Source: Escherichia phage vB_EcoM_JNE01
Sequence record: OR670491
Length of the DNA: 64,000 bases
Reading direction: 5' to 3' (one strand)
Under the pieces are notes generated by a model, which ran no database searches, was not told the origin of the DNA, and saw only the letters and a list, made by a program, of their open reading frames with translations. The position numbers and the translations under genes were made by a program. Positions 1-8,704 of this stretch are shown in pieces; the first letter of the stretch is position 1; each line of letters opens with the position of its first letter.

Positions 1-7
1 TTATAGT

Positions 8-37
8 TTGGGAAATACTCCAGAAAAGTGCTATAAT
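8..37 (+). promoter_or_regulatory. sigma70-like promoter (TTGGGA, 18-nt spacer, TGcTATAAT extended -10)
   Basis: Motif read directly; it precedes about 500 nt with no plus-strand ORF, ending at the terminator near 542-567. Confidence 0.4.
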
Positions 38-44
38 GTATAGT

Positions 45-541
45 GAAAATGACAATGGGCGGTGTAAGCCGGATAACGAGAACCTAATTCTCTTGAAAAT
101 GTAAAGGATAGATGAGCTTTACCATTGTAGCGATGAGCAAAAGAAACCCGTAAGAGTACTAGCAGCCATTCCAACAAGGCATAAGAACTACGAATCACGG
201 CGAAGCGGCTCAATAAAGAACTCCGACAGCATAACAGAGAGTTCCTCGATAGACTTATAAGGATCGCACCTTACCAGATTTGCTAAGGGAGTTTAACTCA
301 ATAAATGCGGTCGCAATTTTTCACAAGAAAGTTGCGTCCAAATTTTGAGTAAACAAGTACTACTTTGGTCGAATAGAGTTAGTACTTTGTGCTGGGGATG
401 AAAAGACCAGTGACCGTTGCATATGACTGCGATAGAGAGAAACAGAGCAACCCGCTTTCGTTCTCTTAAATTAGACGAGAAAGATCCGTCTAAAATTTGA
501 GAAATTCGCAATTCGACAATTCCGATGCCATCAGCGTCAAG
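45..541 (+). ncRNA. candidate noncoding transcript (unclassified) between promoter and intrinsic terminator
   Basis: Only peptides of about 12 codons on plus strand; several short hairpins (GTAAAG/CTTTAC, GAACTC/GAGTTC, AGTACT pair); the two minus-strand ORFs look like noise. Confidence 0.3.
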
Positions 542-567
542 AAGAGACTTAATTGTCTCTTTTTTAT
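542..567 (+). terminator. intrinsic terminator (AAGAGAC/GTCTCTT stem plus T-run)
   Basis: Inverted repeat followed by TTTTTT. Confidence 0.6.
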
Positions 568-700
568 TACTTTCATTCCCCTGCGGGGGGATGAAATGTC
601 CTCAACAAATCCCGTCAAGCTTTTAAAGTACAATATAAAGGAATGAATGAGTTTACGAAGTAAACGATATGAATTCTTGAGTTACGAAGGAACGAAGTGA

Positions 701-1129
701 ATGAGTAACACAGCGAATATTTCAAATAAATCTGAATTCACACAAGAGTTGTTTAATGTGTTTTTCAAATATCAAATATTAGAAGAGAGTCAATGCTTTC
801 AGCTTTATTACAAACAAGTCGGTAGTACATACAACAACTACAAAGAACCTAATTTTTATAAAGAAATTTTGGATTTTGCAGTTAATATAAGAAATAACAG
901 ACCAATAGCAATACTGTTTTTTGACAGATCTATTCCAGTAGAAGTACCTAATCACATTTACTTCATTGAACCAGAAGATTTATCTTCAAAGAATCAATTA
1001 GATTACTTAAGGAATTGTATACTGATAGTATGTGATGAAGTGAAGTATAACCGTCAGTTGAGATGGGATATACGTCATCAAAGAGTACTCAGGGACATGA
1101 ATCCCGAATTAGCCTTTATAATTAACTAA
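701..1129 (+). CDS. hypothetical early protein
   Basis: 142-aa ORF with AGGA upstream; no recognisable motif. Confidence 0.5.
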   Translation: MSNTANISNKSEFTQELFNVFFKYQILEESQCFQLYYKQVGSTYNNYKEPNFYKEILDFAVNIRNNRPIAILFFDRSIPVEVPNHIYFIEPEDLSSKNQLDYLRNCILIVCDEVKYNRQLRWDIRHQRVLRDMNPELAFIIN

Positions 1130-1160
1130 ATATCATAGAAGAACTCTAAGGAGAGATTTT

Positions 1161-1601
1161 ATGGAAAATATTGAAAATTTAAGACATGTAATGGACTTCA
1201 TTGGAAGTACTGAAGAAGATAGTGCATACGATGAAGTACTACTTACTTTTATTGAAAATAGTTTATTTCTATCTAGTTTAGCTCATAGTTGGCATTTACA
1301 ATGTCATTTCTATACTAAGCACTTACAGTTAGATGAACTATATAAAGACTTACCAGAGTACGTTGATGCATTCGTAGAAGGTATTATGAATAATCGCGGT
1401 GCTTTGCAGGTTGGTACTGGACATAGTTACAAATTCACCCCAGTGGAAGAATGTGTTCCTATTCTTGAAGAATATGTTGAGCAATGCAAAGCAATTCATG
1501 CTATGCTTACTGAAGCTGAAGACTATGGCAGTACTAACACACTAGAAGATATTATGAGTTTTGTTGAAGGAATGCTTTACAAACTCAAAGTTTTACAATA
1601 A
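1161..1601 (+). CDS. hypothetical protein (weak Dps/ferritin-like helix pattern)
   Basis: 146-aa ORF with AAGGAG SD; the His/Glu-rich helical stretch LAHSWHLQCHFYTKHLQLDELY is only loosely ferritin-like. Confidence 0.5.
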   Translation: MENIENLRHVMDFIGSTEEDSAYDEVLLTFIENSLFLSSLAHSWHLQCHFYTKHLQLDELYKDLPEYVDAFVEGIMNNRGALQVGTGHSYKFTPVEECVPILEEYVEQCKAIHAMLTEAEDYGSTNTLEDIMSFVEGMLYKLKVLQ

Positions 1602-1650
1602 AATATACGGAGAGTCCATAACGGATTCTCCTTTCTTTTGGAGAAAATTA

Positions 1651-2004
1651 ATGAGTGAATACCGAGTAACAACTGGCCTAATGGCACGTTTAGTAGAAGC
1701 TGTACCTGAAGATGATTATGAATCTGTTTCTGACCGTCTATTCGAAGCTGACTCTGGCCTTCATATTACATATGATGGTTCATTAATTTTCAGTACTGAT
1801 GTTGATGTTCCTGCATATGAATTTGATATTTCAATTGGTACTAAACTAAGCAAAACTGCATTTATTGAAAAGTGCTTACGTGAAGGTTTTTGTGTTGATG
1901 AAAATTCAATTGAACCATATGTATCAGTATGGTGTGATAATGCTGATAGTCCAATGTCAACTACAACAATTGGTGATTTTCTAAATGCAAATCAAAAAGA
2001 TTAA
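1651..2004 (+). CDS. hypothetical protein
   Basis: ORF track starts at 1561; the in-frame ATG at 1651 has a GGAG SD and avoids overlap with the upstream gene. Confidence 0.45.
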   Translation: MSEYRVTTGLMARLVEAVPEDDYESVSDRLFEADSGLHITYDGSLIFSTDVDVPAYEFDISIGTKLSKTAFIEKCLREGFCVDENSIEPYVSVWCDNADSPMSTTTIGDFLNANQKD

Positions 2005-2377
2005 ATTCCATCAGCATTCTTCCTATCATGATTGTGATGACTGTGGGATGATGATAAGTGATATTTACACTGTTTCATGTAAAGGGTTTACATTCACTCA
2101 TGGTGAACCTGCTTATTGCTACGGCAATGAAGAAGGGGATATCGAAATAGTACTAAAAGAGTTGTTTCAGTACTTGCAAAGCGAAGGTCATGATGTTACA
2201 ATGCCCACATATTATGAAGATGATTATGAATCACATGTAGAAGAAAATACATATTATAATCAATTCGTACATGGTAATGGTTTTATTACATACCTTCATG
2301 AGAATGGTATTGAGGTAAAAACCAAGTTCACCAGTGATGACTACGATAGTGATGATTCTATGGAGATTGAAGAATGA
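1985..2377 (+). CDS. hypothetical protein (Cys/His-rich N-terminus)
   Basis: 130-aa ORF; HDCDDCG motif; start uncertain. Confidence 0.4.
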   Translation: MQIKKIKFHQHSSYHDCDDCGMMISDIYTVSCKGFTFTHGEPAYCYGNEEGDIEIVLKELFQYLQSEGHDVTMPTYYEDDYESHVEENTYYNQFVHGNGFITYLHENGIEVKTKFTSDDYDSDDSMEIEE

Positions 2378-2943
2378 AGGCCAAAGATTTAGCGGCATTA
2401 CTGATGCAGAATCCTGAAATGGAAGTGTATCATGAAAATTGGCACAGTGATGATATGTGCGAGGTATATTATTCCCCAGAAACAATTGATGGGATTGAAA
2501 TTACTCCCAGTGGTGTATTCATCAAGACTGCAAGTGTTGATTTCAATGACAGTCGTGAAATTAAACTCCCGTGTGATAAACCAATCATTGGAACAATTGA
2601 CCTAGTATTCCACCAGGAACGTCAGATTGATACTGAAAATGAAGATGGTGAACAGGTTGCTGATGTTGCCAATGTCATTTTCCCTTTTTACTATTCTGAT
2701 TCACAACCAATGCACGGTAATGATTTCTTCCGTGAACTTTTGGAAGATGGTGAGGTATATGGTCGTGATGGAAATGTATTTGCACTTGATGAGAACTACG
2801 AACCAGACCACAACACTTGGCAGTTCTATACACCAGAAGATGTTATGGAAGTAAAAGTACTAACATCATTTGACGAACAGTGGAATGTACAGTATACTTC
2901 AATGAAGTTTGAAGAAGCTAAAAAATACTTTGAAACCAAATAA
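2374..2943 (+). CDS. hypothetical acidic protein
   Basis: 189-aa ORF; ATGA start/stop overlap with the upstream gene. Confidence 0.5.
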   Translation: MKAKDLAALLMQNPEMEVYHENWHSDDMCEVYYSPETIDGIEITPSGVFIKTASVDFNDSREIKLPCDKPIIGTIDLVFHQERQIDTENEDGEQVADVANVIFPFYYSDSQPMHGNDFFRELLEDGEVYGRDGNVFALDENYEPDHNTWQFYTPEDVMEVKVLTSFDEQWNVQYTSMKFEEAKKYFETK

Positions 2944-2968
2944 GATTATCAAATAAGGATCTAATAAT

Positions 2969-3253
2969 ATGAAAATTGTTGCAAGTGCGTGGATGGGATT
3001 TGAGGATAAAACTACTGGTTACGAATCTAGCCTAATCGTTGAAAGTACTGAAGAATTAAAACGATTTAAAGCTGAAACCGATGATGATGTATTTGATATT
3101 GTATACACTTATCATCTCATCCCTAACGATACCGACTATGACAAATATTATTATGATCCAGACAGCCTCATGGAGCTAGTGTCTTGTACTGAAAATGAAG
3201 TAAATGAGACAACGGCACTACTAATGTTGAGTACTGTCCCAGCAAAGGGGTAG
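2969..3253 (+). CDS. hypothetical protein
   Basis: 94-aa ORF with AAGGA SD. Confidence 0.5.
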   Translation: MKIVASAWMGFEDKTTGYESSLIVESTEELKRFKAETDDDVFDIVYTYHLIPNDTDYDKYYYDPDSLMELVSCTENEVNETTALLMLSTVPAKG

Positions 3254-3256
3254 TTT

Positions 3257-3742
3257 ATGTATACACTTATTTTCTTACGTGAGCCAGACGGTGACAGTAC
3301 TGATGGTGTTGTTGAATTTCATGGTGCTGACTCCATTGTTGCAGTAGAACGACTTATCAAAGCTGTTGTTCGTAGGCAGGTTCTTCTTGAACGTACTAAC
3401 AAAGGAAAATACACTTATGGTGAATGTGGCTTTGTACTGCTGAAAAATGGCGAATTAGTTGATGAATACAATAGTTCTTTTTCAAACATGTATTCTGATT
3501 TTGAATGTATTTCTCAATCTAAAGAAAAATACAGCATAAACAAAGTTGTGCAACAAATTTCCAGACTTCTATCAAGACAAACAAGTTTTATCAATGACCA
3601 GAAAACTGATGAGCGATTCGTATCAAATTCATTAAAACCTTTGTATGAACGTTTGGAAAAAGAAAATATGGAGCGTAAACGTCTAAAAGAATTGATGGAA
3701 AAGTATCCTGATATGGTGAAAGAATATGGCAAAGAGATCTAA
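3257..3742 (+). CDS. hypothetical protein
   Basis: 161-aa ORF with GGGG SD. Confidence 0.5.
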   Translation: MYTLIFLREPDGDSTDGVVEFHGADSIVAVERLIKAVVRRQVLLERTNKGKYTYGECGFVLLKNGELVDEYNSSFSNMYSDFECISQSKEKYSINKVVQQISRLLSRQTSFINDQKTDERFVSNSLKPLYERLEKENMERKRLKELMEKYPDMVKEYGKEI

Positions 3743-4046
3743 TTTATCATATGAAGCATGTGAAACATACATGACCAAAGATGGAAAGGAACATCGAGGG
3801 GTTAAGCCAGAGTACGTAGTGCTACGTGAAGTTCTGTTGAATGAAAGTTACGGCAGCAATCGCCGTAACAAGATCTTAGATTTACTAAGAAGCGGAATTG
3901 AAATTGCAGTAAATCGCAAGTACTCTGTCCAGACGAAAGATGATCCAGATATCAAGAAATTGATTAAGGACGGTAAAATTGAAATGTTCAATGTAGCTAC
4001 TGGTCCGAAATCAAAATGCACATACTTAAGGATTAAGAATGGGTAA
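3726..4046 (+). CDS. hypothetical protein
   Basis: 106-aa ORF in a tightly packed operon. Confidence 0.45.
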   Translation: MAKRSNLSYEACETYMTKDGKEHRGVKPEYVVLREVLLNESYGSNRRNKILDLLRSGIEIAVNRKYSVQTKDDPDIKKLIKDGKIEMFNVATGPKSKCTYLRIKNG

Positions 4047-4620
4047 ACTAATATATTACTATGGGAGTATGAGTTCAGGTAAAAGTACTAACTTATTACA
4101 AACAGCATACAACCATAAAAAGAATGGAATGGAAGTGGTTTATCTCACCAGTGCATTAGATGACCGATACGGGGTTGGTACGATTAAATCCAGAATTGGC
4201 ATCGAAGCCCAGGCAGAGATTATCCCAAAAGATGACAGTACTTTATTATTGGACATTAAGAAACGTCTTGAGAAGAACTTAGATATTAACAGTATCTATG
4301 TTGATGAATGCCAGTTCCTGAATAAAGAACAAGTTGATATTCTTTCTGAAATTGCAGATGAATACAATGTTGACGTTTACTGTTATGGTATTCGTACTGA
4401 TTTCGAAACAAATCTTTTTGATGGTTCACGACGTTTGTTCGAAATTGCAGATGAAATCCATCAGCTACATAATGTGTGTGAAAACCAAAAATGTGGTCAC
4501 CCAGCAACAATGAACGTCCGCATAGCAAACAGTACTGATAAAGTTTTCATTGGTGGTGATGAATCATATAAAAGTATGTGCAGAAAATGCTATAAAGAAT
4601 ACATGAGGAAAAAGAAATGA
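4039..4620 (+). CDS. tdk: thymidine kinase
   Basis: P-loop YYYGSMSSGKST, DECQFL, C-terminal Cys-x-x-Cys ... CRKC zinc ribbon; collinear with bacterial Tdk. Confidence 0.85.
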   Translation: MGKLIYYYGSMSSGKSTNLLQTAYNHKKNGMEVVYLTSALDDRYGVGTIKSRIGIEAQAEIIPKDDSTLLLDIKKRLEKNLDINSIYVDECQFLNKEQVDILSEIADEYNVDVYCYGIRTDFETNLFDGSRRLFEIADEIHQLHNVCENQKCGHPATMNVRIANSTDKVFIGGDESYKSMCRKCYKEYMRKKK

Positions 4621-4841
4621 TTGATAACTTTCTAAAATCTATTACTCAAAGAGTATTTGGTGCTTTACTGGATAGTATCAAATTAGTATTCAGTACTGTC
4701 TATATGCTTATTATTGTATGTCTATTTTCTTTAGTACTGCATTTTGTACCAACATGGCTAGTTATTACTGCTATTATTGTATTCCTGGCATTTGGTGTTT
4801 ATGGAACATACCTGGCAGAACTTGAAGATTCAGACGTGTAA
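4617..4841 (+). CDS. small membrane protein (two predicted TM helices, acidic C-terminus; holin-like topology)
   Basis: 74-aa ORF; hydrophobic stretches MLIIVCLFSLVLHF and LVITAIIVFLAFGVYG. Confidence 0.45.
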   Translation: MIDNFLKSITQRVFGALLDSIKLVFSTVYMLIIVCLFSLVLHFVPTWLVITAIIVFLAFGVYGTYLAELEDSDV

Positions 4842-4847
4842 CACATT

Positions 4848-4871
4848 AGACCCTTTATGGGTCTATTTTTT
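4848..4871 (+). terminator. intrinsic terminator (AGACCC/GGGTCT stem plus T-run)
   Basis: Inverted repeat followed by ATTTTTT. Confidence 0.6.
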
Positions 4872-4882
4872 AAGGAAAATAC

Positions 4883-5362
4883 ATGGAACCTATCTTTGGT
4901 GCATTGAAGCGTTTTGTAGATATTATATCTCATACTAACGTTCTCTATAATGACAATGACAGTACTGTAAAAATGATGGAAGTACTGGGATACACAGACG
5001 TACAAAGTGTGTATTATGACGGTATCATGGTCAGAGGTATCGAAGGAGATTGTCGATTATCTTACATGGGTATGATTGACACCTTTGTTGTACAGAAAGG
5101 AAAGATTGAAATTGTCCTTGAAGTACGTTATACAGGTTCATCAAACACAATATATTACAATTGTACCCGTACTGATTGTGCATATGAAACAGACTTTGAC
5201 CAGCAAACGACTATGCAATCCAGACCAATCGATTACCCTGATGATTCTTTTGTGCAAATTCATAAGGATTTATTTGATTTATGTGCTACAATGTCAGAGA
5301 GTGAAGACGTATATTACTTCCCAATCATCACAGTAAGAGAGAATGGTAATGCGATGGCGTAA
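4883..5362 (+). CDS. hypothetical protein
   Basis: 159-aa ORF with AAGGAAA SD. Confidence 0.5.
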   Translation: MEPIFGALKRFVDIISHTNVLYNDNDSTVKMMEVLGYTDVQSVYYDGIMVRGIEGDCRLSYMGMIDTFVVQKGKIEIVLEVRYTGSSNTIYYNCTRTDCAYETDFDQQTTMQSRPIDYPDDSFVQIHKDLFDLCATMSESEDVYYFPIITVRENGNAMA

Positions 5363-5747
5363 ACATAAAGTGAAACAGCTTGAAAAAATTGTCAAGAAGT
5401 TTTATAGCAAAAAAAGTGATCCAATGATGGTTATGCTACGTGACAGTATAGGGGTACGAAAGTATCCTGAATGCTTAACCAACTCTATTGGTCGCATGAA
5501 CAATCGATACTACGTTAATGATTATGCAAGTGCCGAAACCTCTTTTTTCGGAAATCGTGTATCTGTACCATCATACGTTCATTCAAAAGTGAAGCGAAGC
5601 CGTGTTCAAGGTGTTCTGCATGGTTATTTGCTGATTACGATGGAAGAATTAAACAAAGAGTTAGGTACTAACTACACCCAAGGCTGCATAGACAATATCA
5701 AGTTCATAAAAGATTTGGACGAAGAGTTAGATGATGATACAATGTAA
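5343..5747 (+). CDS. hypothetical basic protein
   Basis: 134-aa ORF overlapping the upstream stop. Confidence 0.45.
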   Translation: MVMRWRKHKVKQLEKIVKKFYSKKSDPMMVMLRDSIGVRKYPECLTNSIGRMNNRYYVNDYASAETSFFGNRVSVPSYVHSKVKRSRVQGVLHGYLLITMEELNKELGTNYTQGCIDNIKFIKDLDEELDDDTM

Positions 5748-5777
5748 ATTGTACAACTGGAAAAAGGAAAATGAATA

Positions 5778-5909
5778 ATGAACGGATTAAAGAAGTTTGG
5801 AACTGACGTTCTTAAGTGCATTCGATACACTTATGACGCTAATCCAGAAATGACTGCAATTGTGGGTGTTTTCATTGCACTCGTTGTTTTATCTTGTATT
5901 ATGGTGTAA
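5778..5909 (+). CDS. small membrane peptide (43 aa), not in ORF track
   Basis: ATG preceded by AAAGGAAA; C-terminal hydrophobic helix AIVGVFIALVVLSCIMV. Confidence 0.3.
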   Translation: MNGLKKFGTDVLKCIRYTYDANPEMTAIVGVFIALVVLSCIMV

Positions 5910-5912
5910 AAT

Positions 5913-6116
5913 ATGATTGAAATTAATGCTGATGTATATTGTAGTGCTGCACCAAATTACTTCATTTATGCACTAAGTACTTTTGGTGATACAGAAGGTG
6001 AAACTTTTGTTTTAGTAGATAATACTACATGGTACAAAACAAGTAATAAAATTCCGAAAGATGTTTTGGAAACTTATGTTCGTATTGAAAATAAAAACAT
6101 ATATGTAAATTTATAG
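5913..6116 (+). CDS. hypothetical protein
   Basis: 67-aa ORF. Confidence 0.4.
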   Translation: MIEINADVYCSAAPNYFIYALSTFGDTEGETFVLVDNTTWYKTSNKIPKDVLETYVRIENKNIYVNL

Positions 6117-6123
6117 GTAAAAT

Positions 6124-6534
6124 ATGATTGAAATGGAAGGAACTCTGGTGTATGATCCAGATCGTGGCACTATGAAAAAGAAGAAGGACTTCTGGTTAGT
6201 ACTGCAACTTCCATTACAGTTGGTTCGATACTACCAGTACTTCATCAGAACTGACTTACATATTGATATTAAAGACCCACAATGGGGAGCACATGTCAGT
6301 ATCGTTCGTGGTGAAGTGCCACCAAATCCAGAGTACTGGAAAAAGTACGATGGTATGAAAGTTAAGATTAAGTTCGAACCTTTCATCGAAGAAGTAAAAG
6401 ACAATAAGAAACCTGGGTCATTCTTTATCATAGAGTTTGAAGATGATTTCATTGCACAAATTCGTGATGAACTTGGTTTAGCATCTAAATATTTCAAATA
6501 TCACATCACCATTGGTAGAACATACTACGATTAA
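6124..6534 (+). CDS. 2H phosphoesterase superfamily protein (LigT/cyclic phosphodiesterase-like; possibly Acb1-like)
   Basis: Two H-x-[ST]-x motifs (HVSI near residue 57, HITI near residue 127) in a 136-aa protein, the 2H hallmark. Confidence 0.5.
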   Translation: MIEMEGTLVYDPDRGTMKKKKDFWLVLQLPLQLVRYYQYFIRTDLHIDIKDPQWGAHVSIVRGEVPPNPEYWKKYDGMKVKIKFEPFIEEVKDNKKPGSFFIIEFEDDFIAQIRDELGLASKYFKYHITIGRTYYD

Positions 6535-6557
6535 TGTGGTTATTTGGTAAATAGGTC

Positions 6558-6585
6558 TTGATATAACTAAAAAGTATGCTATACT
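6558..6585 (+). promoter_or_regulatory. sigma70-like promoter (TTGATA, 16-nt spacer, TGcTATACT)
   Basis: Motif upstream of the endolysin gene. Confidence 0.4.
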
Positions 6586-6701
6586 ACTTAAATGTTCCAA
6601 AGAACAACTGAGTACTGTAGAAAGTCCAATGAGGCTTTTGCAAATGGCCTCTTTGCCCTCTTTGTGATTGCTCATTGTTAACAACCAACAAAGGAGGCGT
6701 T

Positions 6702-7628
6702 TTGAAAAAAGCGAAAAAAGCACTGAAAACTAAAATTGCCGTAGGCGTATTAGTTTCATCAGCCCTATTCGCTGCTATTGGATTTTATGGTTTTTCTCAA
6801 AGTGATCATGTACCATCATTAGACGAAAGTCAGGTGCATAATTTAAAACCACAGTTTACTCAAATTCAAAAGCAGGAACTACCACAGGTATCAGTACCAA
6901 AAGCAGTTCCAAGCAGCGAGAAACATTATACGGTTCAACCTGGAGATAGTTATTATTCTATTGCACAGAAATTTAAACCTAAAAATGTACAGATTGAAGA
7001 TTATGTCATTTTGTTGAAGAACATCAACTTAAATGCAACTCTTCATACTTCTCAGGGTATCTTTATCCCAACAAAAGAGGATTTGAAGAACGTATTGTTA
7101 CCAGATGTGACTGTACTGTTTGATTATAAAGATCCAGAAATTGTCAATCACATCAAAGAAGCTGAAGGTTCTATTGAATTTCAGTCCAAGAACAAACGAC
7201 GTTTACTTGGTGGGAAAGTTGGAGTTCCATATCGAAATTCTAAATTTTATCCGTATCGTGATATAAAAGGTAACTTCACTATTGGGTACGGACATTATCT
7301 TGGAAAGAAAGAATCAGATGCAAGTAAGTATCGTAATGGTATTACGAAGTCACAAGCACATAAACTTTTATTGTCTGACATGGAACGAACTAATAATGAT
7401 TTAGTTTTATTATTGAAGAAAAGAAATGCAACAAACCTTACGGCTGAACAGCAACGAATTTTATTTGAGATGGCATTTACATTAGGAGTTGATAAGTTAA
7501 ATACTTTCAATAAATTATGGAAAAGCGTTGATAATCAAAATGATAACAAGTTCAAAAAAGAAATTAAGAATTCTCTATGGTATCGTCAAGTAGGAAACCG
7601 TGCAGAATTGTTAGTTAGTAATTTGTAA
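6702..7628 (+). CDS. endolysin: N-terminal membrane anchor, LysM domain, T4 e-type (GH24) lysozyme domain
   Basis: TIGYGHYLGK and SLWYRQVGNRAELLV match the T4 lysozyme catalytic region; YTVQPGDSYYSIAQKF is LysM; hydrophobic IAVGVLVSSALFAAIGFYGF. Start set to TTG after AAAGGAGG; ORF track begins at 6675. Confidence 0.8.
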   Translation: MKKAKKALKTKIAVGVLVSSALFAAIGFYGFSQSDHVPSLDESQVHNLKPQFTQIQKQELPQVSVPKAVPSSEKHYTVQPGDSYYSIAQKFKPKNVQIEDYVILLKNINLNATLHTSQGIFIPTKEDLKNVLLPDVTVLFDYKDPEIVNHIKEAEGSIEFQSKNKRRLLGGKVGVPYRNSKFYPYRDIKGNFTIGYGHYLGKKESDASKYRNGITKSQAHKLLLSDMERTNNDLVLLLKKRNATNLTAEQQRILFEMAFTLGVDKLNTFNKLWKSVDNQNDNKFKKEIKNSLWYRQVGNRAELLVSNL

Positions 7629-7636
7629 TTTACAAT

Positions 7637-7667
7637 AAAGGATGATATGTATCATCCTTTATTTTTA
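7637..7667 (+). terminator. intrinsic terminator (AAAGGATGAT/ATCATCCTTT)
   Basis: 10-bp stem, 4-nt loop, then ATTTTT. Confidence 0.65.
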
Positions 7668-7677
7668 AGGTAAAAAT

Positions 7678-8310
7678 ATGATATATAATGTTGGTATAAA
7701 TGATGTACCAGGTGATTCTAAATCGGATAGTGATGGTTATTATATATATGTGAAATGGAAAAGTATGATTAAACGATGCTACTCAGTTGAATATCAAAAA
7801 ATACACCATTCATATATTGGAACAACTGTATGTAATGAATGGCTTACATATTCAAATTTTAAAGATTGGTATCTAAATAATTACATAGACGGGTATGTTT
7901 TAGATAAAGACTTGATATCGGGTGATTTACAAGTATACTCACCAGTGACATGTTCATTTGTACCACAAGAATTAAATTGTTCTATTCTTGAAAGTAATAG
8001 TGCTAAAACAAAACTACCATTGGGTGTGTCATATCAACAGAAAACTAAAAATATGATAAATGAACGTTCGAAACCATATGATTCATATATAAAAATGTAT
8101 GGTAAGTTGTATCGTCTTGGTAGTTATGAATGTCCTGAACTTGCACATAAAGAATGGCAAATCGCCAAGAAAAAATATCTCGAAGAACTCATTGACAGAT
8201 ATAAAAATTCTGTTAAAATGGAAGTCATAGAAGGTATTCAGAAACGAATTGATATATTACATAATGATATAGTCAATGACGGTGTTACAATAACAATCAA
8301 TAAGATATAA
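7678..8310 (+). mobile_element. free-standing HNH (HNH_3)/AP2-type homing endonuclease gene
   Basis: Pattern YxxWxxMxxRCY ... VCxEW ... LDKD ... YSPVTC and AP2-like GVSYQQKTKNM; very AT-rich, bracketed by terminators. Confidence 0.5.
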
Positions 8311-8322
8311 GGTAGGTAAATT

Positions 8323-8649
8323 ATGCTAAATTTCGTTATCCAAGGTAATGTAGATGTTACTCCAGCAATTCATGACGCAATCCGCGATGAAGCAACAGTA
8401 CTAAGTAAATTTAGTGATGCTTCAGTACTGAATCTTGGTGTTCATCTGAAGAAAGAGCATAAAACACAGTACACTGTAACACTAACTTCTAATGGTAAGT
8501 CTGTTACTGCAAATGCAGCAGATTTATACAAAGCGATTAGTGATTCATTTGAAAAAATGGAAGTTGTACTTGGTAAAGACAAAAGCATTAAACTGCATCG
8601 TCGTAACCACCCAACACGTCCTCTGGACTTGACAGAAGACGAAGAGTAA
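8323..8649 (+). CDS. ribosome hibernation factor (HPF/RaiA/YfiA family)
   Basis: 108-aa protein collinear with E. coli YfiA/HPF as recalled: VTPAIHDAIRD, NLGVHLKKEHK, TVTLTSNGKSVTANAADLYKAISDSFEKMEVVLGK. Confidence 0.7.
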   Translation: MLNFVIQGNVDVTPAIHDAIRDEATVLSKFSDASVLNLGVHLKKEHKTQYTVTLTSNGKSVTANAADLYKAISDSFEKMEVVLGKDKSIKLHRRNHPTRPLDLTEDEE

Positions 8650-8660
8650 TTTATAATAAA

Positions 8661-8690
8661 GGGACAGTATATTTCTGTCCCTTTTCTTTT
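8661..8690 (+). terminator. intrinsic terminator (GGGACAG/CTGTCCC)
   Basis: Stem-loop followed by TTTTCTTTT. Confidence 0.65.
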
Positions 8691-8704
8691 TGGAGTTTTT
8701 TAAT

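What the first reader, a model, noticed from the sequence alone, without database searches (positions are those of the whole stretch)
7628..8320. Free-standing HNH/AP2-type homing endonuclease downstream of the endolysin
The ORF has the W-x-x-M-x-x-R-C-Y ... VC-x-E-W N-terminal pattern and an AP2-like segment typical of phage HNH_3 homing endonucleases. It is markedly AT-rich and isolated by terminators on both sides, consistent with a mobile insertion.
Basis: partly seen in the sequence, partly recalled or inferred. Interest (0 to 1): 0.4.

Follow-up and report, generated by a model that had tools for sequence, protein, structure and literature searches.

The report
Selfish endonuclease-type gene in jumbo phage
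A 210-codon selfish "homing endonuclease"-type gene of a known phage family (IPA-HNH, with an AP2 DNA-binding domain) sits between the lysozyme and ribosome-hibernation genes of an E. coli jumbo phage, absent from that site in all 32 E. coli relatives on record; this is ordinary biology, but it sits exactly at a recombination boundary and lacks the usual catalytic histidine.

Summary
The ORF is real (7678..8310, +, 210 aa) and is a free-standing, sporadically distributed gene. It belongs to a 686-bp cassette (7623..8308) that replaces 16 bp between the lysozyme and HPF genes. The site is empty in all 32 Escherichia Asteriusvirus records searched. About 52%-identical homologues occupy the same junction in Salmonella 7t3/Munch/SE_PL (intact) and in fENko-Kae01 and GAP32 (split). 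The window is 98-100% Turkey5-like, except for a TH47-like tract (~5906..7622) that abuts the cassette. The right-hand crossover lies within 8322..8329, which looks like homing with one-sided co-conversion.

Verdict: a new member of a known kind, of modest interest.

The parts
5906..7622 (+). TH47/Ecwhy_1-type tract inside an otherwise Turkey5-type genome. It is the putative one-sided co-conversion tract that abuts the cassette. It carries a 67-aa ORF (5913-6116), a 2H-phosphoesterase-like ORF (6124-6534) and the lysozyme gene.
   Evidence: Sliding identity: 99-100% to TH47 and 46-85% to Turkey5 in this tract, against 97-100% to Turkey5 over nearly all of 1-5750 (one 250-bp bin at 94%) and 98-100% from ~8330 to 16000. 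The left switch maps between 5901 and 5906.
6702..7628 (+). Upstream flanking gene: LysM + T4-type lysozyme with an N-terminal membrane anchor (endolysin or tail lysozyme). The longest ORF starts at TTG 6675.
   Evidence: Pfam Phage_lysozyme 2.1e-09 and LysM 2.5e-04. phrog_15410 1.9e-156. Relatives annotate a 927-nt CDS.
7623..8308 (+). The 686-bp cassette. In HEG-less genomes a 16-nt stretch (CTTTAAAACTAAAAAA in TH47) stands in its place. The cassette supplies a new last Leu codon and stop for the lysozyme gene (TTG TAA instead of CTT TAA), then the hairpin, the RBS and the ORF.
   Evidence: Junction alignments with TH47, Ecwhy_1, WPEC5, Turkey5 and A4. The Salmonella phage 7t3 cassette shares the same TTG-TAA lysozyme end and a related hairpin.
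7638..7667 (+). Stem-loop (10-bp stem, 4-nt loop) plus T-run. It is a probable intrinsic terminator or attenuator upstream of the ORF and is part of the cassette.
   Evidence: RNA fold of -15 kcal/mol, z = -3.3, 0 of 200 shuffles as stable. It was not called by the consensus scan. A related hairpin (GGGATG..CATCCC + T-run) occurs at the same place in 7t3 and fENko-Kae01.
7678..8310 (+). ORF of 210 aa, an IPA-HNH family protein (putative free-standing homing endonuclease).
   Evidence: phrog_953 'HNH endonuclease' 8.3e-68. BLASTP to ICP1 gp59 2e-20. AF2 model pLDDT 89.7, pTM 0.82.
7678..7992 (+). N-terminal domain (residues 1-105): a helical bundle plus a beta-omega loop-beta-alpha unit, i.e. 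a putative His-less His-Me finger. Invariant residues are D76-K77-D78 (7903-7911), Y87 (7936-7938) and N100 (7975-7977).
8014..8202 (+). AP2/ERF-type DNA-binding domain (residues ~113-175: a three-stranded sheet at 117-119, 134-140 and 143-150, plus helix 153-175). A C-terminal helix follows at 181-199 (8218-8274).
8309..8329 (+). Right junction. It holds the TH47-type HPF ribosome-binding region (AAGGTAGGTAAATT), then the crossover to Turkey5-type sequence between 8322 and 8329.
   Evidence: Three-way comparison of window, TH47 and Turkey5.
8323..8649 (+). Downstream flanking gene: ribosome hibernation promoting factor (S30AE/HPF/RaiA), Turkey5-type allele.
   Evidence: Pfam Ribosomal_S30AE 4e-11. 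98.8% identity to Turkey5 over 8309-16000.
8658..8684 (+). First terminator downstream. It follows HPF, not the endonuclease-type ORF.
   Evidence: Terminator scan: 10-bp stem, 5 GC pairs, T-run.

Best explanation
What it is. [quoted passage not shown] It lies in a 686-bp cassette at the lysozyme|HPF junction of an Asteriusvirus (121Q/PBECO4-like E. coli jumbo phage).

Likely mechanism.
1. (Inferred) The gene is transcribed by read-through of its own upstream hairpin from lysozyme transcripts.
2. (Fold shown by model, function inferred) The C-terminal AP2 domain binds a specific DNA site.
3. (Inferred) The N-terminal beta-omega-beta-alpha domain nicks or cuts the cassette-less allele of a co-infecting relative, at or near the lysozyme 3' end / HPF 5' end.
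4. (Inferred) The break is repaired by recombination with the cassette-bearing genome, which copies the cassette and a stretch of flanking donor DNA into the recipient.
5. (Shown) The window looks like such a product. It has a Turkey5-type backbone carrying the cassette plus ~1.7 kb of TH47-type left flank, with the right crossover within 20 bp of the cassette end.
6. (Inferred) Chemistry: a single metal ion held by D76 (or D78) and N100. Either the invariant omega-loop Y87 (as in PacI) or K77 takes the role of the missing histidine.
For: Insertion polymorphism.
- The lysozyme stop and HPF ATG are 14-24 bp apart in TH47, Ecwhy_1, WPEC5, Turkey5 and A4, against 694 bp here.
- A joined lysozyme-3'/HPF query gives single-piece matches spanning 706-758 bp in all 32 Escherichia records, so all of those sites are empty.

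Sporadic occupancy of the same junction.
- Intact homologues sit there in Salmonella 7t3, Munch and SE_PL (7t3 record read directly; Munch and SE_PL inferred from hit coordinates).
- The homologues in Klebsiella fENko-Kae01 and Cronobacter GAP32 are split into two CDSs.
- Family members also occupy other loci, in TH47, A4 (frameshifted), RCIP0023, CBB and Muenster.

Recombination boundary.
- The window is ~97-100% Turkey5-like over 1-5750 (one 250-bp bin at 94%) and 98-100% from ~8330 to 16000, but 99-100% TH47-like in ~5906-7622.
- A Logan contig (L005) carries a 98% copy with TH47-type sequence on both sides. This is the donor-type context.
- The same recombinant occurs on at least 5 contigs from other samples at 99.5-100% identity.

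Family.
- phrog_953 8.3e-68.
- ICP1 gp59 2e-20, 36% identity over 139 aa, with DKD, Y and N conserved.
- 23,518 cluster representatives at E <= 1e-3.
- Barth et al. define IPA-HNH as HNH-like domains that Pfam HNH_3 misses, paired with a C-terminal AP2 domain, and show that such genes sit at boundaries of genetic exchange.

Fold.
- PacI uses Asp and Asn as metal ligands and an omega-loop Tyr in place of His.
- The family's invariant D76, N100 and Y87 sit at the corresponding secondary-structure positions.
- The annotators of phage Muenster recorded HHpred 97.9% to 1U3E (I-HmuI) and 5WX9 (AP2) for a 47%-identical homologue.
Against: - There is no experimental evidence of nuclease activity for any IPA-HNH protein in the papers I could read.
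- Pfam and NCBIfam give no hit, and 0 of 135 members hit an HNH model.
- hhalign against a genuine HNH_3 alignment gives probability 0.4-0.6%.
- The canonical general-base histidine is replaced by an invariant lysine. His-Me groups lacking both His and the Tyr substitute are regarded as inactive.
- PacI's Cys4 zinc sites are absent.
- The mosaic cannot be polarised with only two Turkey5-type genomes, and ordinary homologous recombination could have produced it.
- The cleavage site is unknown.
Confidence: 0.65

Rival explanations
1. Catalytically dead, domesticated relative of an HNH-AP2 endonuclease. The protein only binds DNA, as a transcription regulator, an anti-defence factor or an exclusion factor. 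The cassette moves passively by ordinary homologous recombination between co-infecting jumbo phages, like a moron.
For: - The catalytic His is absent and a Lys stands in its place.
- No HNH profile or profile-profile signal was found.
- His-Me domains without the His are known to have become DNA-binding modules, e.g. Smad MH1.
- AP2 and other HEG-derived DNA-binding domains have been co-opted as repressors, e.g. CapR and CasPR.
- The cassette carries an upstream terminator-like hairpin, as morons often do.
Against: - D76, K77, D78, Y87 and N100 are invariant across 135 sequences of 28% mean column identity. They sit exactly at the beta1-end, omega-loop and alpha-helix positions used for catalysis in His-Me fingers, with a D+N+Y set as in active PacI.
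- Copies occupy many different loci, and frameshifted copies occur. This is the homing life cycle rather than a retained host-beneficial regulator.
- The recombination boundary coincides with the cassette end to within 20 bp.
Confidence: 0.22
2. Ancestral resident gene rather than an insertion. The gene sat between the lysozyme and HPF genes in the common ancestor of these jumbo phages and has been deleted in most E. coli Asteriusviruses. The window simply retains it, or received it with a block of neighbouring DNA.
For: - Homologues occupy the same junction in 7t3, Munch, SE_PL, fENko-Kae01 and GAP32.
- Window against 7t3 amino-acid identity is 52% for this gene. That is comparable to the flanking lysozyme (55%), HPF (41%) and CCA enzyme (62%).
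- The 5' leader hairpin and the TTG-TAA lysozyme end are shared with 7t3.
Against: - All 32 Escherichia records have a clean empty site with a conserved short spacer. There are no remnants of the ORF, which would require precise loss or spread of an empty allele.
- TH47 is 99.3% identical to the window in the last 556 bp of the lysozyme gene (552/556), up to the cassette, yet lacks the cassette.
- Copies at other loci are just as similar (~50%) as the same-locus copies, so orthology is not demonstrated.
- This reading is not exclusive of homing. Long residence, decay, loss and re-invasion are the expected cycle of a homing element.
Confidence: 0.1

Closest known systems
IPA-HNH homing endonuclease genes (ICP1 gp59, gp115-116, gp209; Barth et al. 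2023, PMC10448857)
   Same: - Direct sequence homology to gp59 (2e-20), including the DKD...Y...N motif.
- An N-terminal HNH-like domain that the Pfam HNH_3 profile misses, plus a C-terminal AP2 domain.
- Free-standing, variably present, often frameshifted, and located at boundaries of genetic exchange.
   Different: - The host lineage is an E. coli jumbo phage (Asteriusvirus) and the site is the lysozyme|HPF junction. The family was reported mostly near polymerase, RNR and terminase genes.
- Only ~36% identical to gp59 over the N-domain.
- No member has been shown biochemically to cut DNA.
HNH-AP2 homing endonucleases of cyanobacteria, ciliates and phages (Magnani et al. 2004, as cited in PMC10448857 and PMC5714182 group 2); I-HmuI / Pfam HNH_3
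   Same: - Architecture of a nuclease-type N-domain followed by an AP2 DNA-binding domain.
- A selfish-element lifestyle.
- A third-party HHpred note links a homologue to 1U3E.
   Different: - No HNH_3 profile match, and hhalign probability below 1%.
- The catalytic His is replaced by an invariant Lys.
Restriction endonuclease PacI (His-Me finger group 20; PDB 3M7K/3LDY)
   Same: - Best structural match of the N-domain model.
- PacI lacks the general-base His. It uses Asp and Asn as metal ligands and an omega-loop Tyr.
- The family here has invariant D76, N100 and omega-loop Y87.
   Different: - PacI is a 142-aa homodimer with two Cys4 zinc sites and no AP2 domain. Those cysteines are not present here.
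- No detectable sequence similarity.
Free-standing homing endonucleases of T4-like phages (Seg and Mob proteins, e.g. SegG, MobE)
   Same: - An intergenic selfish gene between conserved genes.
- Spread by double-strand-break repair during co-infection, with co-conversion of flanking markers. This is established knowledge, and SegG is cited in PMC10448857.
- An upstream hairpin or terminator that limits expression, as reported for mobE (from my own knowledge, not checked here).
   Different: - Different nuclease families: GIY-YIG, or canonical HNH with zinc fingers.
- Activity is demonstrated for those proteins but only inferred here.

Membership tests
IPA-HNH homing endonuclease genes (Barth et al. 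2023) | Sequence homology to ICP1 gp59 / gp115-116 / gp209 | tested here: met
   BLASTP to gp59 (NC_015157 27261-28079): E = 2e-20, 36% identity over 139 aa, with LDKD, Y and N conserved. Only gp59 was compared; gp115-116 and gp209 were not tested.
IPA-HNH homing endonuclease genes (Barth et al. 2023) | N-terminal HNH-like domain too divergent for the Pfam HNH_3 profile | tested here: met
   No Pfam hit at E <= 10. 0 of 135 members hit any HNH model. ICP1 gp59 likewise has no Pfam hit.
IPA-HNH homing endonuclease genes (Barth et al. 2023) | C-terminal AP2 DNA-binding domain | tested here: met
   [not shown]
IPA-HNH homing endonuclease genes (Barth et al. 2023) | Variable presence between related phages, with decayed copies | tested here: met
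   Empty site in 32 Escherichia records. Split copies in GAP32, fENko-Kae01 and A4.
Pfam HNH_3 (PF13392) / I-HmuI-type His-Me finger nucleases | Profile match at or above the family threshold | tested here: not met
   No hit in Pfam or NCBIfam. hhalign of the family against a 42-sequence HNH_3 alignment gives probability 0.4-0.6%.
Pfam HNH_3 (PF13392) / I-HmuI-type His-Me finger nucleases | General-base histidine at the C-terminal end of beta-strand 1 | tested here: not met
   The residue after strand 73-76 is K77, invariant in 135 sequences.
Pfam HNH_3 (PF13392) / I-HmuI-type His-Me finger nucleases | beta-beta-alpha-metal fold with Asp/Asn metal ligands | tested here: inconclusive
   [not shown]
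PacI-like His-less His-Me fingers (group 20 of Jablonska et al. 2017) | No catalytic His; a tyrosine in the omega-loop takes its role | tested here: inconclusive
   [not shown]
PacI-like His-less His-Me fingers (group 20 of Jablonska et al. 2017) | Two Cys4 zinc-binding motifs around the catalytic site | tested here: not met
   Only C34 and C92 are nearly invariant. No Cys4 pattern appears in the alignment.
AP2/ERF domain (PF00847) | Pfam profile match | tested here: not met
   No hit for this protein at E <= 10. 14 of 135 relatives hit it, all below the gathering score of 33.3 bits.
AP2/ERF domain (PF00847) | Three-stranded antiparallel sheet packed on one helix | tested here: met
   [not shown]
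Free-standing homing endonuclease gene (functional class) | Presence/absence polymorphism at one site among close relatives, outside any intron or intein | tested here: met
Free-standing homing endonuclease gene (functional class) | Flanking-marker co-conversion or a recombination tract adjoining the gene | tested here: met
   A TH47-type tract at 5906-7622 in a Turkey5-type backbone, with the right crossover at 8322-8329. The direction of transfer is inferred.
Free-standing homing endonuclease gene (functional class) | Site-specific cleavage of the gene-less allele | not testable with these tools
   This needs a biochemical assay or phage crosses.

The most novel reading that the evidence does not exclude
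The whole IPA-HNH family (more than 23,000 clusters at 50% identity, and very common in phages) may be a His-less His-Me finger. It would cut DNA with a PacI-like Asp/Asn-metal site and an omega-loop tyrosine (Y87), or with a lysine (K77), in place of the canonical histidine. That would make it a distinct catalytic variant of homing endonucleases that no Pfam or NCBIfam HNH model recognises. The window, together with TH47, Turkey5 and contig L005, would supply a natural recipient, donor-type and product set from which the cut site and co-conversion tract can be mapped.
Probability: 0.35. Interest if true: 0.5.

Novelty: new member of a known kind. Interest (0 to 1): 0.3.

Why it matters
For genome annotation, this is an ordinary selfish gene. 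It should be labelled an IPA-HNH / AP2-domain putative homing endonuclease, not HNH_3.

Two points give it some value beyond that:
- It is a clean natural example of a nuclease-type gene sitting exactly at a boundary of genetic exchange between jumbo phages. A recipient-type genome (Turkey5), a donor-type context (L005, TH47) and the recombinant product (the window, re-sampled in at least 5 data sets) are all available.
- A very large phage protein family that is routinely annotated "HNH endonuclease" has an invariant Lys at the catalytic His position and an invariant loop Tyr. Whether and how these proteins cut DNA is therefore an open question that can be tested directly.

The insertion also places a terminator-like hairpin and 0.7 kb between the lysozyme and HPF genes, which may change HPF expression in this phage.

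Tried and rejected
- Pfam and NCBIfam scans of the ORF at E <= 10: nothing.
- phmmer of the ORF against PDB sequences: only spurious coiled-coil maquette hits.
- hhalign of the family (A2) against a genuine HNH_3 alignment built from ICP1 gp80 relatives (A3). I ran it on the full length and on the N-domain only, in local, relaxed and global modes. No significant alignment, probability below 1%.
- Paralogues or other HNH_3 genes in the 64-kb window: none by tblastn or by hmmsearch with the A2 and A3 models.
- Near-identical copies in IMG/VR and JGI metagenome contigs: none; best 50% and 49%.
- Rfam search of 6000-10000 and a tRNA scan of the window: nothing.
- The idea that same-junction copies form a closer group than other-locus copies: rejected, since all pairs are ~45-57% identical.
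- A PD-(D/E)xK reading of "DKD" (phrog_8790 is labelled "restriction endonuclease"): rejected, because neither the motif spacing nor the predicted fold fits.
- Reading the PacI structure paper (PMC2886031): not held. PacI chemistry was taken from two reviews instead.
Full report
**Observation**

The region holds one convincing ORF, 7678..8310 on the + strand. It encodes 210 aa and starts at an ATG preceded by AAGGT. The stated motifs are present: W27xxM30xxR33C34Y35 and V51C52xE54W55.

The ORF is AT-rich, at 28.9% GC against a window mean of 37.7% (lowest 1.2% of equal-sized windows). The two ORFs at 8690-9481 are equally AT-rich.

A strong hairpin with a T-run lies upstream at 7638-7667. It folds at -15 kcal/mol, z = -3.3, although the consensus scan did not list it. 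No terminator lies between the ORF and the next gene. The nearest one, 8658-8684, follows HPF.

**Genomic setting**

The window comes from an Asteriusvirus, a 121Q/PBECO4-like E. coli jumbo phage.
- The upstream gene encodes a LysM + T4-type lysozyme.
- The downstream gene encodes an S30AE/HPF ribosome hibernation factor.
- A CCA-adding enzyme gene lies further on.

**It is an insertion relative to every close relative**

In TH47, Ecwhy_1, WPEC5, Turkey5 and A4, the lysozyme stop and the HPF ATG are 14-24 bp apart. Here they are 694 bp apart.

I joined the last 400 bp of the lysozyme gene to the HPF gene and used this as a query. It gave single-piece matches spanning 706-758 bp in all 32 Escherichia records. 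All of those sites are therefore empty.

Base-level alignment defines a 686-bp cassette, 7623..8308. It replaces 16 nt (CTTTAAAACTAAAAAA in TH47). It supplies a synonymous last Leu codon and stop for the lysozyme gene, then the hairpin, the RBS and the ORF. The HPF ribosome-binding region is kept on its right side.

No phage record holds a copy more than 52% identical in protein or more than 67% identical in DNA. IMG/VR and the JGI metagenomes hold none either.

The exact protein does occur on at least 6 contigs from other samples (5 retrieved and compared), always in the same context at 99.5-100% DNA identity. A 98% variant sits on a Logan contig, L005.

**The same junction is occupied in more distant jumbo phages**

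Homologues about 52% identical lie between the lysozyme and HPF genes in several other phages:
- Salmonella phages 7t3, Munch and SE_PL carry intact copies.
- Klebsiella phage fENko-Kae01 carries a copy split into two CDSs.
- Cronobacter phage GAP32 also carries a split copy.

The 7t3 cassette shares the TTG-TAA lysozyme end and a related leader hairpin. Between the window and 7t3 the gene is 52% identical. That is similar to the flanking lysozyme (55%), HPF (41%) and CCA enzyme (62%). The element therefore looks like an old but sporadic resident of this junction.

Other family members lie at unrelated loci. These are in TH47, A4 (frameshifted), RCIP0023, Muenster and CBB. The CBB copy sits between homologues of two genes that are adjacent in GAP32.

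All of these copies are about 45-57% identical to one another, whatever their locus. Sporadic occupancy, many loci and decayed copies together form the pattern expected of a homing element.

**It sits exactly at a recombination boundary**

The window is 97-100% identical to phage Turkey5 over nearly all of 1-5750 (one 250-bp bin at 94%) and 98-100% from about 8330 to 16000. Between about 5906 and 7622 it is only 46-85% identical to Turkey5, but 99-100% identical to TH47 and Ecwhy_1.

On the right, the TH47-type HPF ribosome-binding region is retained. The sequence switches to Turkey5-type between 8322 and 8329.

Contig L005 carries the cassette with TH47-type sequence on both sides. This gives a donor-type context (L005), a recipient-type genome (Turkey5) and a product (the window). 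In the product, the cassette has arrived together with about 1.7 kb of donor left flank.

That is what double-strand-break repair with one-sided co-conversion would leave. It also matches the published finding that nuclease genes occupy boundaries of genetic exchange. The direction of transfer is inferred. Ordinary recombination cannot be excluded.

**The protein**

PHROGs places it in phrog_953, "HNH endonuclease", at 8.3e-68. A profile of the protein and 14 homologues found 23,518 cluster representatives at E <= 1e-3. Most are about 200 aa long.

It is homologous to ICP1 gp59, a founding member of the IPA-HNH family (2e-20). Barth et al. defined that family as HNH-like domains too divergent for the Pfam HNH_3 profile, joined to a C-terminal AP2 domain.

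*AP2 domain.* This part is well supported.
- The AlphaFold model has pLDDT 89.7. It shows a three-stranded sheet plus a helix at residues 113-175.
- The family profile matches the WRI1 AP2 sequence at 1.4e-5.
- Pfam's AP2 model does not reach this protein. It touches 14 of 135 relatives, all below threshold.

*HNH label.* This is much less secure in my tests.
- No Pfam or NCBIfam model hits the protein.
- None of 135 relatives hits an HNH model.
- hhalign against a 42-sequence alignment of Pfam-positive HNH_3 proteins (the ICP1 gp80 family) gives probability below 1%, for the full length and for the N-domain alone.
- Whole-model fold searches list no HNH structure.

*Points in favour.*
- The N-domain has a strand (73-76), a loop, a strand (93-96) and a helix (97-102).
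- D76, K77, D78, Y87 and N100 are invariant across 135 sequences of 28% mean column identity.
- The annotators of phage Muenster recorded HHpred 97.9% to I-HmuI (1U3E) for a 47%-identical homologue.

*Active site.* The residue at the canonical general-base position, the end of strand 1, is Lys and not His.
- PacI is the known precedent for a His-less active His-Me finger. Its metal is held by an Asp and an Asn, and an omega-loop Tyr takes the role of the His.
- The invariant D76, N100 and loop Y87 fit that pattern.
- PacI's Cys4 zinc sites are missing here.
- His-Me domains that lack both the His and the Tyr are considered inactive, so the conserved Tyr matters.
- I could not superpose coordinates to test the equivalence.

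**Mechanism, with confidence**

I judge it about 85% likely that this is a selfish, mobile IPA-HNH family cassette. I judge it about 55-60% likely that the protein is itself an active site-specific nuclease that drives its own spread. The combined statement gets 0.65.

- Shown: the insertion polymorphism, family membership, the AP2 fold (by model), the invariant motif and the recombination tract.
- Inferred: expression by read-through of the leader hairpin, target recognition by the AP2 domain, cleavage near the junction, repair-mediated copying and the Tyr/Lys chemistry.

The rivals are:
- a dead, DNA-binding-only derivative that moves by general recombination (0.22);
- a purely ancestral gene lost in most E. 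coli Asteriusviruses (0.10). This second reading is compatible with a long homing cycle.

**Comparison with what is known, and verdict**

It is a member of the IPA-HNH family, which already accounts for it. It works like the free-standing Seg and Mob endonuclease genes of T4-like phages. It is not a member of Pfam HNH_3, because both the profile and the catalytic-His features were tested and not met. Its N-domain may be a PacI-like variant.

Novelty: a new member of a known kind, at a site and in a phage lineage not described for the family. Interest is modest, at 0.3. The open question about the active site applies to the whole, very large family rather than to this locus.

Noticed in passing
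L002 (TH47, MT446416.1) 8588-9655; corresponds to window ~9483-9802: TH47 carries a 355-aa ORF with a DUF4379 treble-clef / CapR-like zinc finger (Pfam 1.7e-07) just upstream of the CCA-adding enzyme gene. The window has no such gene there. It looks like a second endonuclease-type insertion polymorphism about 1.5 kb downstream.
   Followed up: partly
window 5913-6116: A 67-aa ORF of unknown function is present in the window, TH47 and Ecwhy_1 but absent from Turkey5. It lies at the left edge of the TH47-type tract.
   Followed up: partly
window 8192-8219 and 8629-8657: There is a promoter-like site (TTGACA-16-TAAAAT with TG, 11 of 12) inside the 3' end of the endonuclease-type ORF, about 100 nt upstream of the HPF start. 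It might restore HPF transcription behind the cassette's hairpin. A perfect 12 of 12 site lies inside the HPF 3' end, directly abutting the terminator at 8658-8684. The overall number of promoter-like sites equals the shuffle expectation.
   Followed up: no
window 8690-9481: Two ORFs of unknown function (phrog_36582 for the first) form a block as AT-rich as the cassette, at 27.6-29.4% GC. Their similarity to Ecwhy_1 jumps to 91% at 9000-9500 amid 68-84% around them, which suggests another small mosaic patch.
   Followed up: no
L015 (Pectobacterium phage CBB, NC_041878.1) 1501-2109: The CBB family member lies between homologues of GAP32_059 and GAP32_060, which are consecutively numbered in GAP32. 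This would be another presence/absence site for the family.
   Followed up: no
L007 (Escherichia phage A4, ON286972.1) 3016-3662: The A4 paralogue at a different locus is split by a frameshift into two annotated CDSs. A further CDS annotated "putative HNH endonuclease" lies 1.7 kb downstream.
   Followed up: partly
L005 (Logan SRR13434628) versus window 7089-7223: 12 of the 14 lysozyme-gene mismatches between L005 and the window cluster in 135 bp. This is a mini-mosaic inside the flank.
   Followed up: no
window 6124-6534: A 136-aa ORF has a sub-threshold match to the 2H-phosphoesterase 'Swiss Army Knife' domain (PF22547, 5.9e-05, 23.8 bits against a cut-off of 27). It lies next to a phage HPF gene and a CCA-adding enzyme gene, so this may be a cluster of RNA/translation-related genes.
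   Followed up: no
window 1-64000: ARAGORN finds no tRNA or tmRNA gene in the whole 64-kb window.
   Followed up: yes
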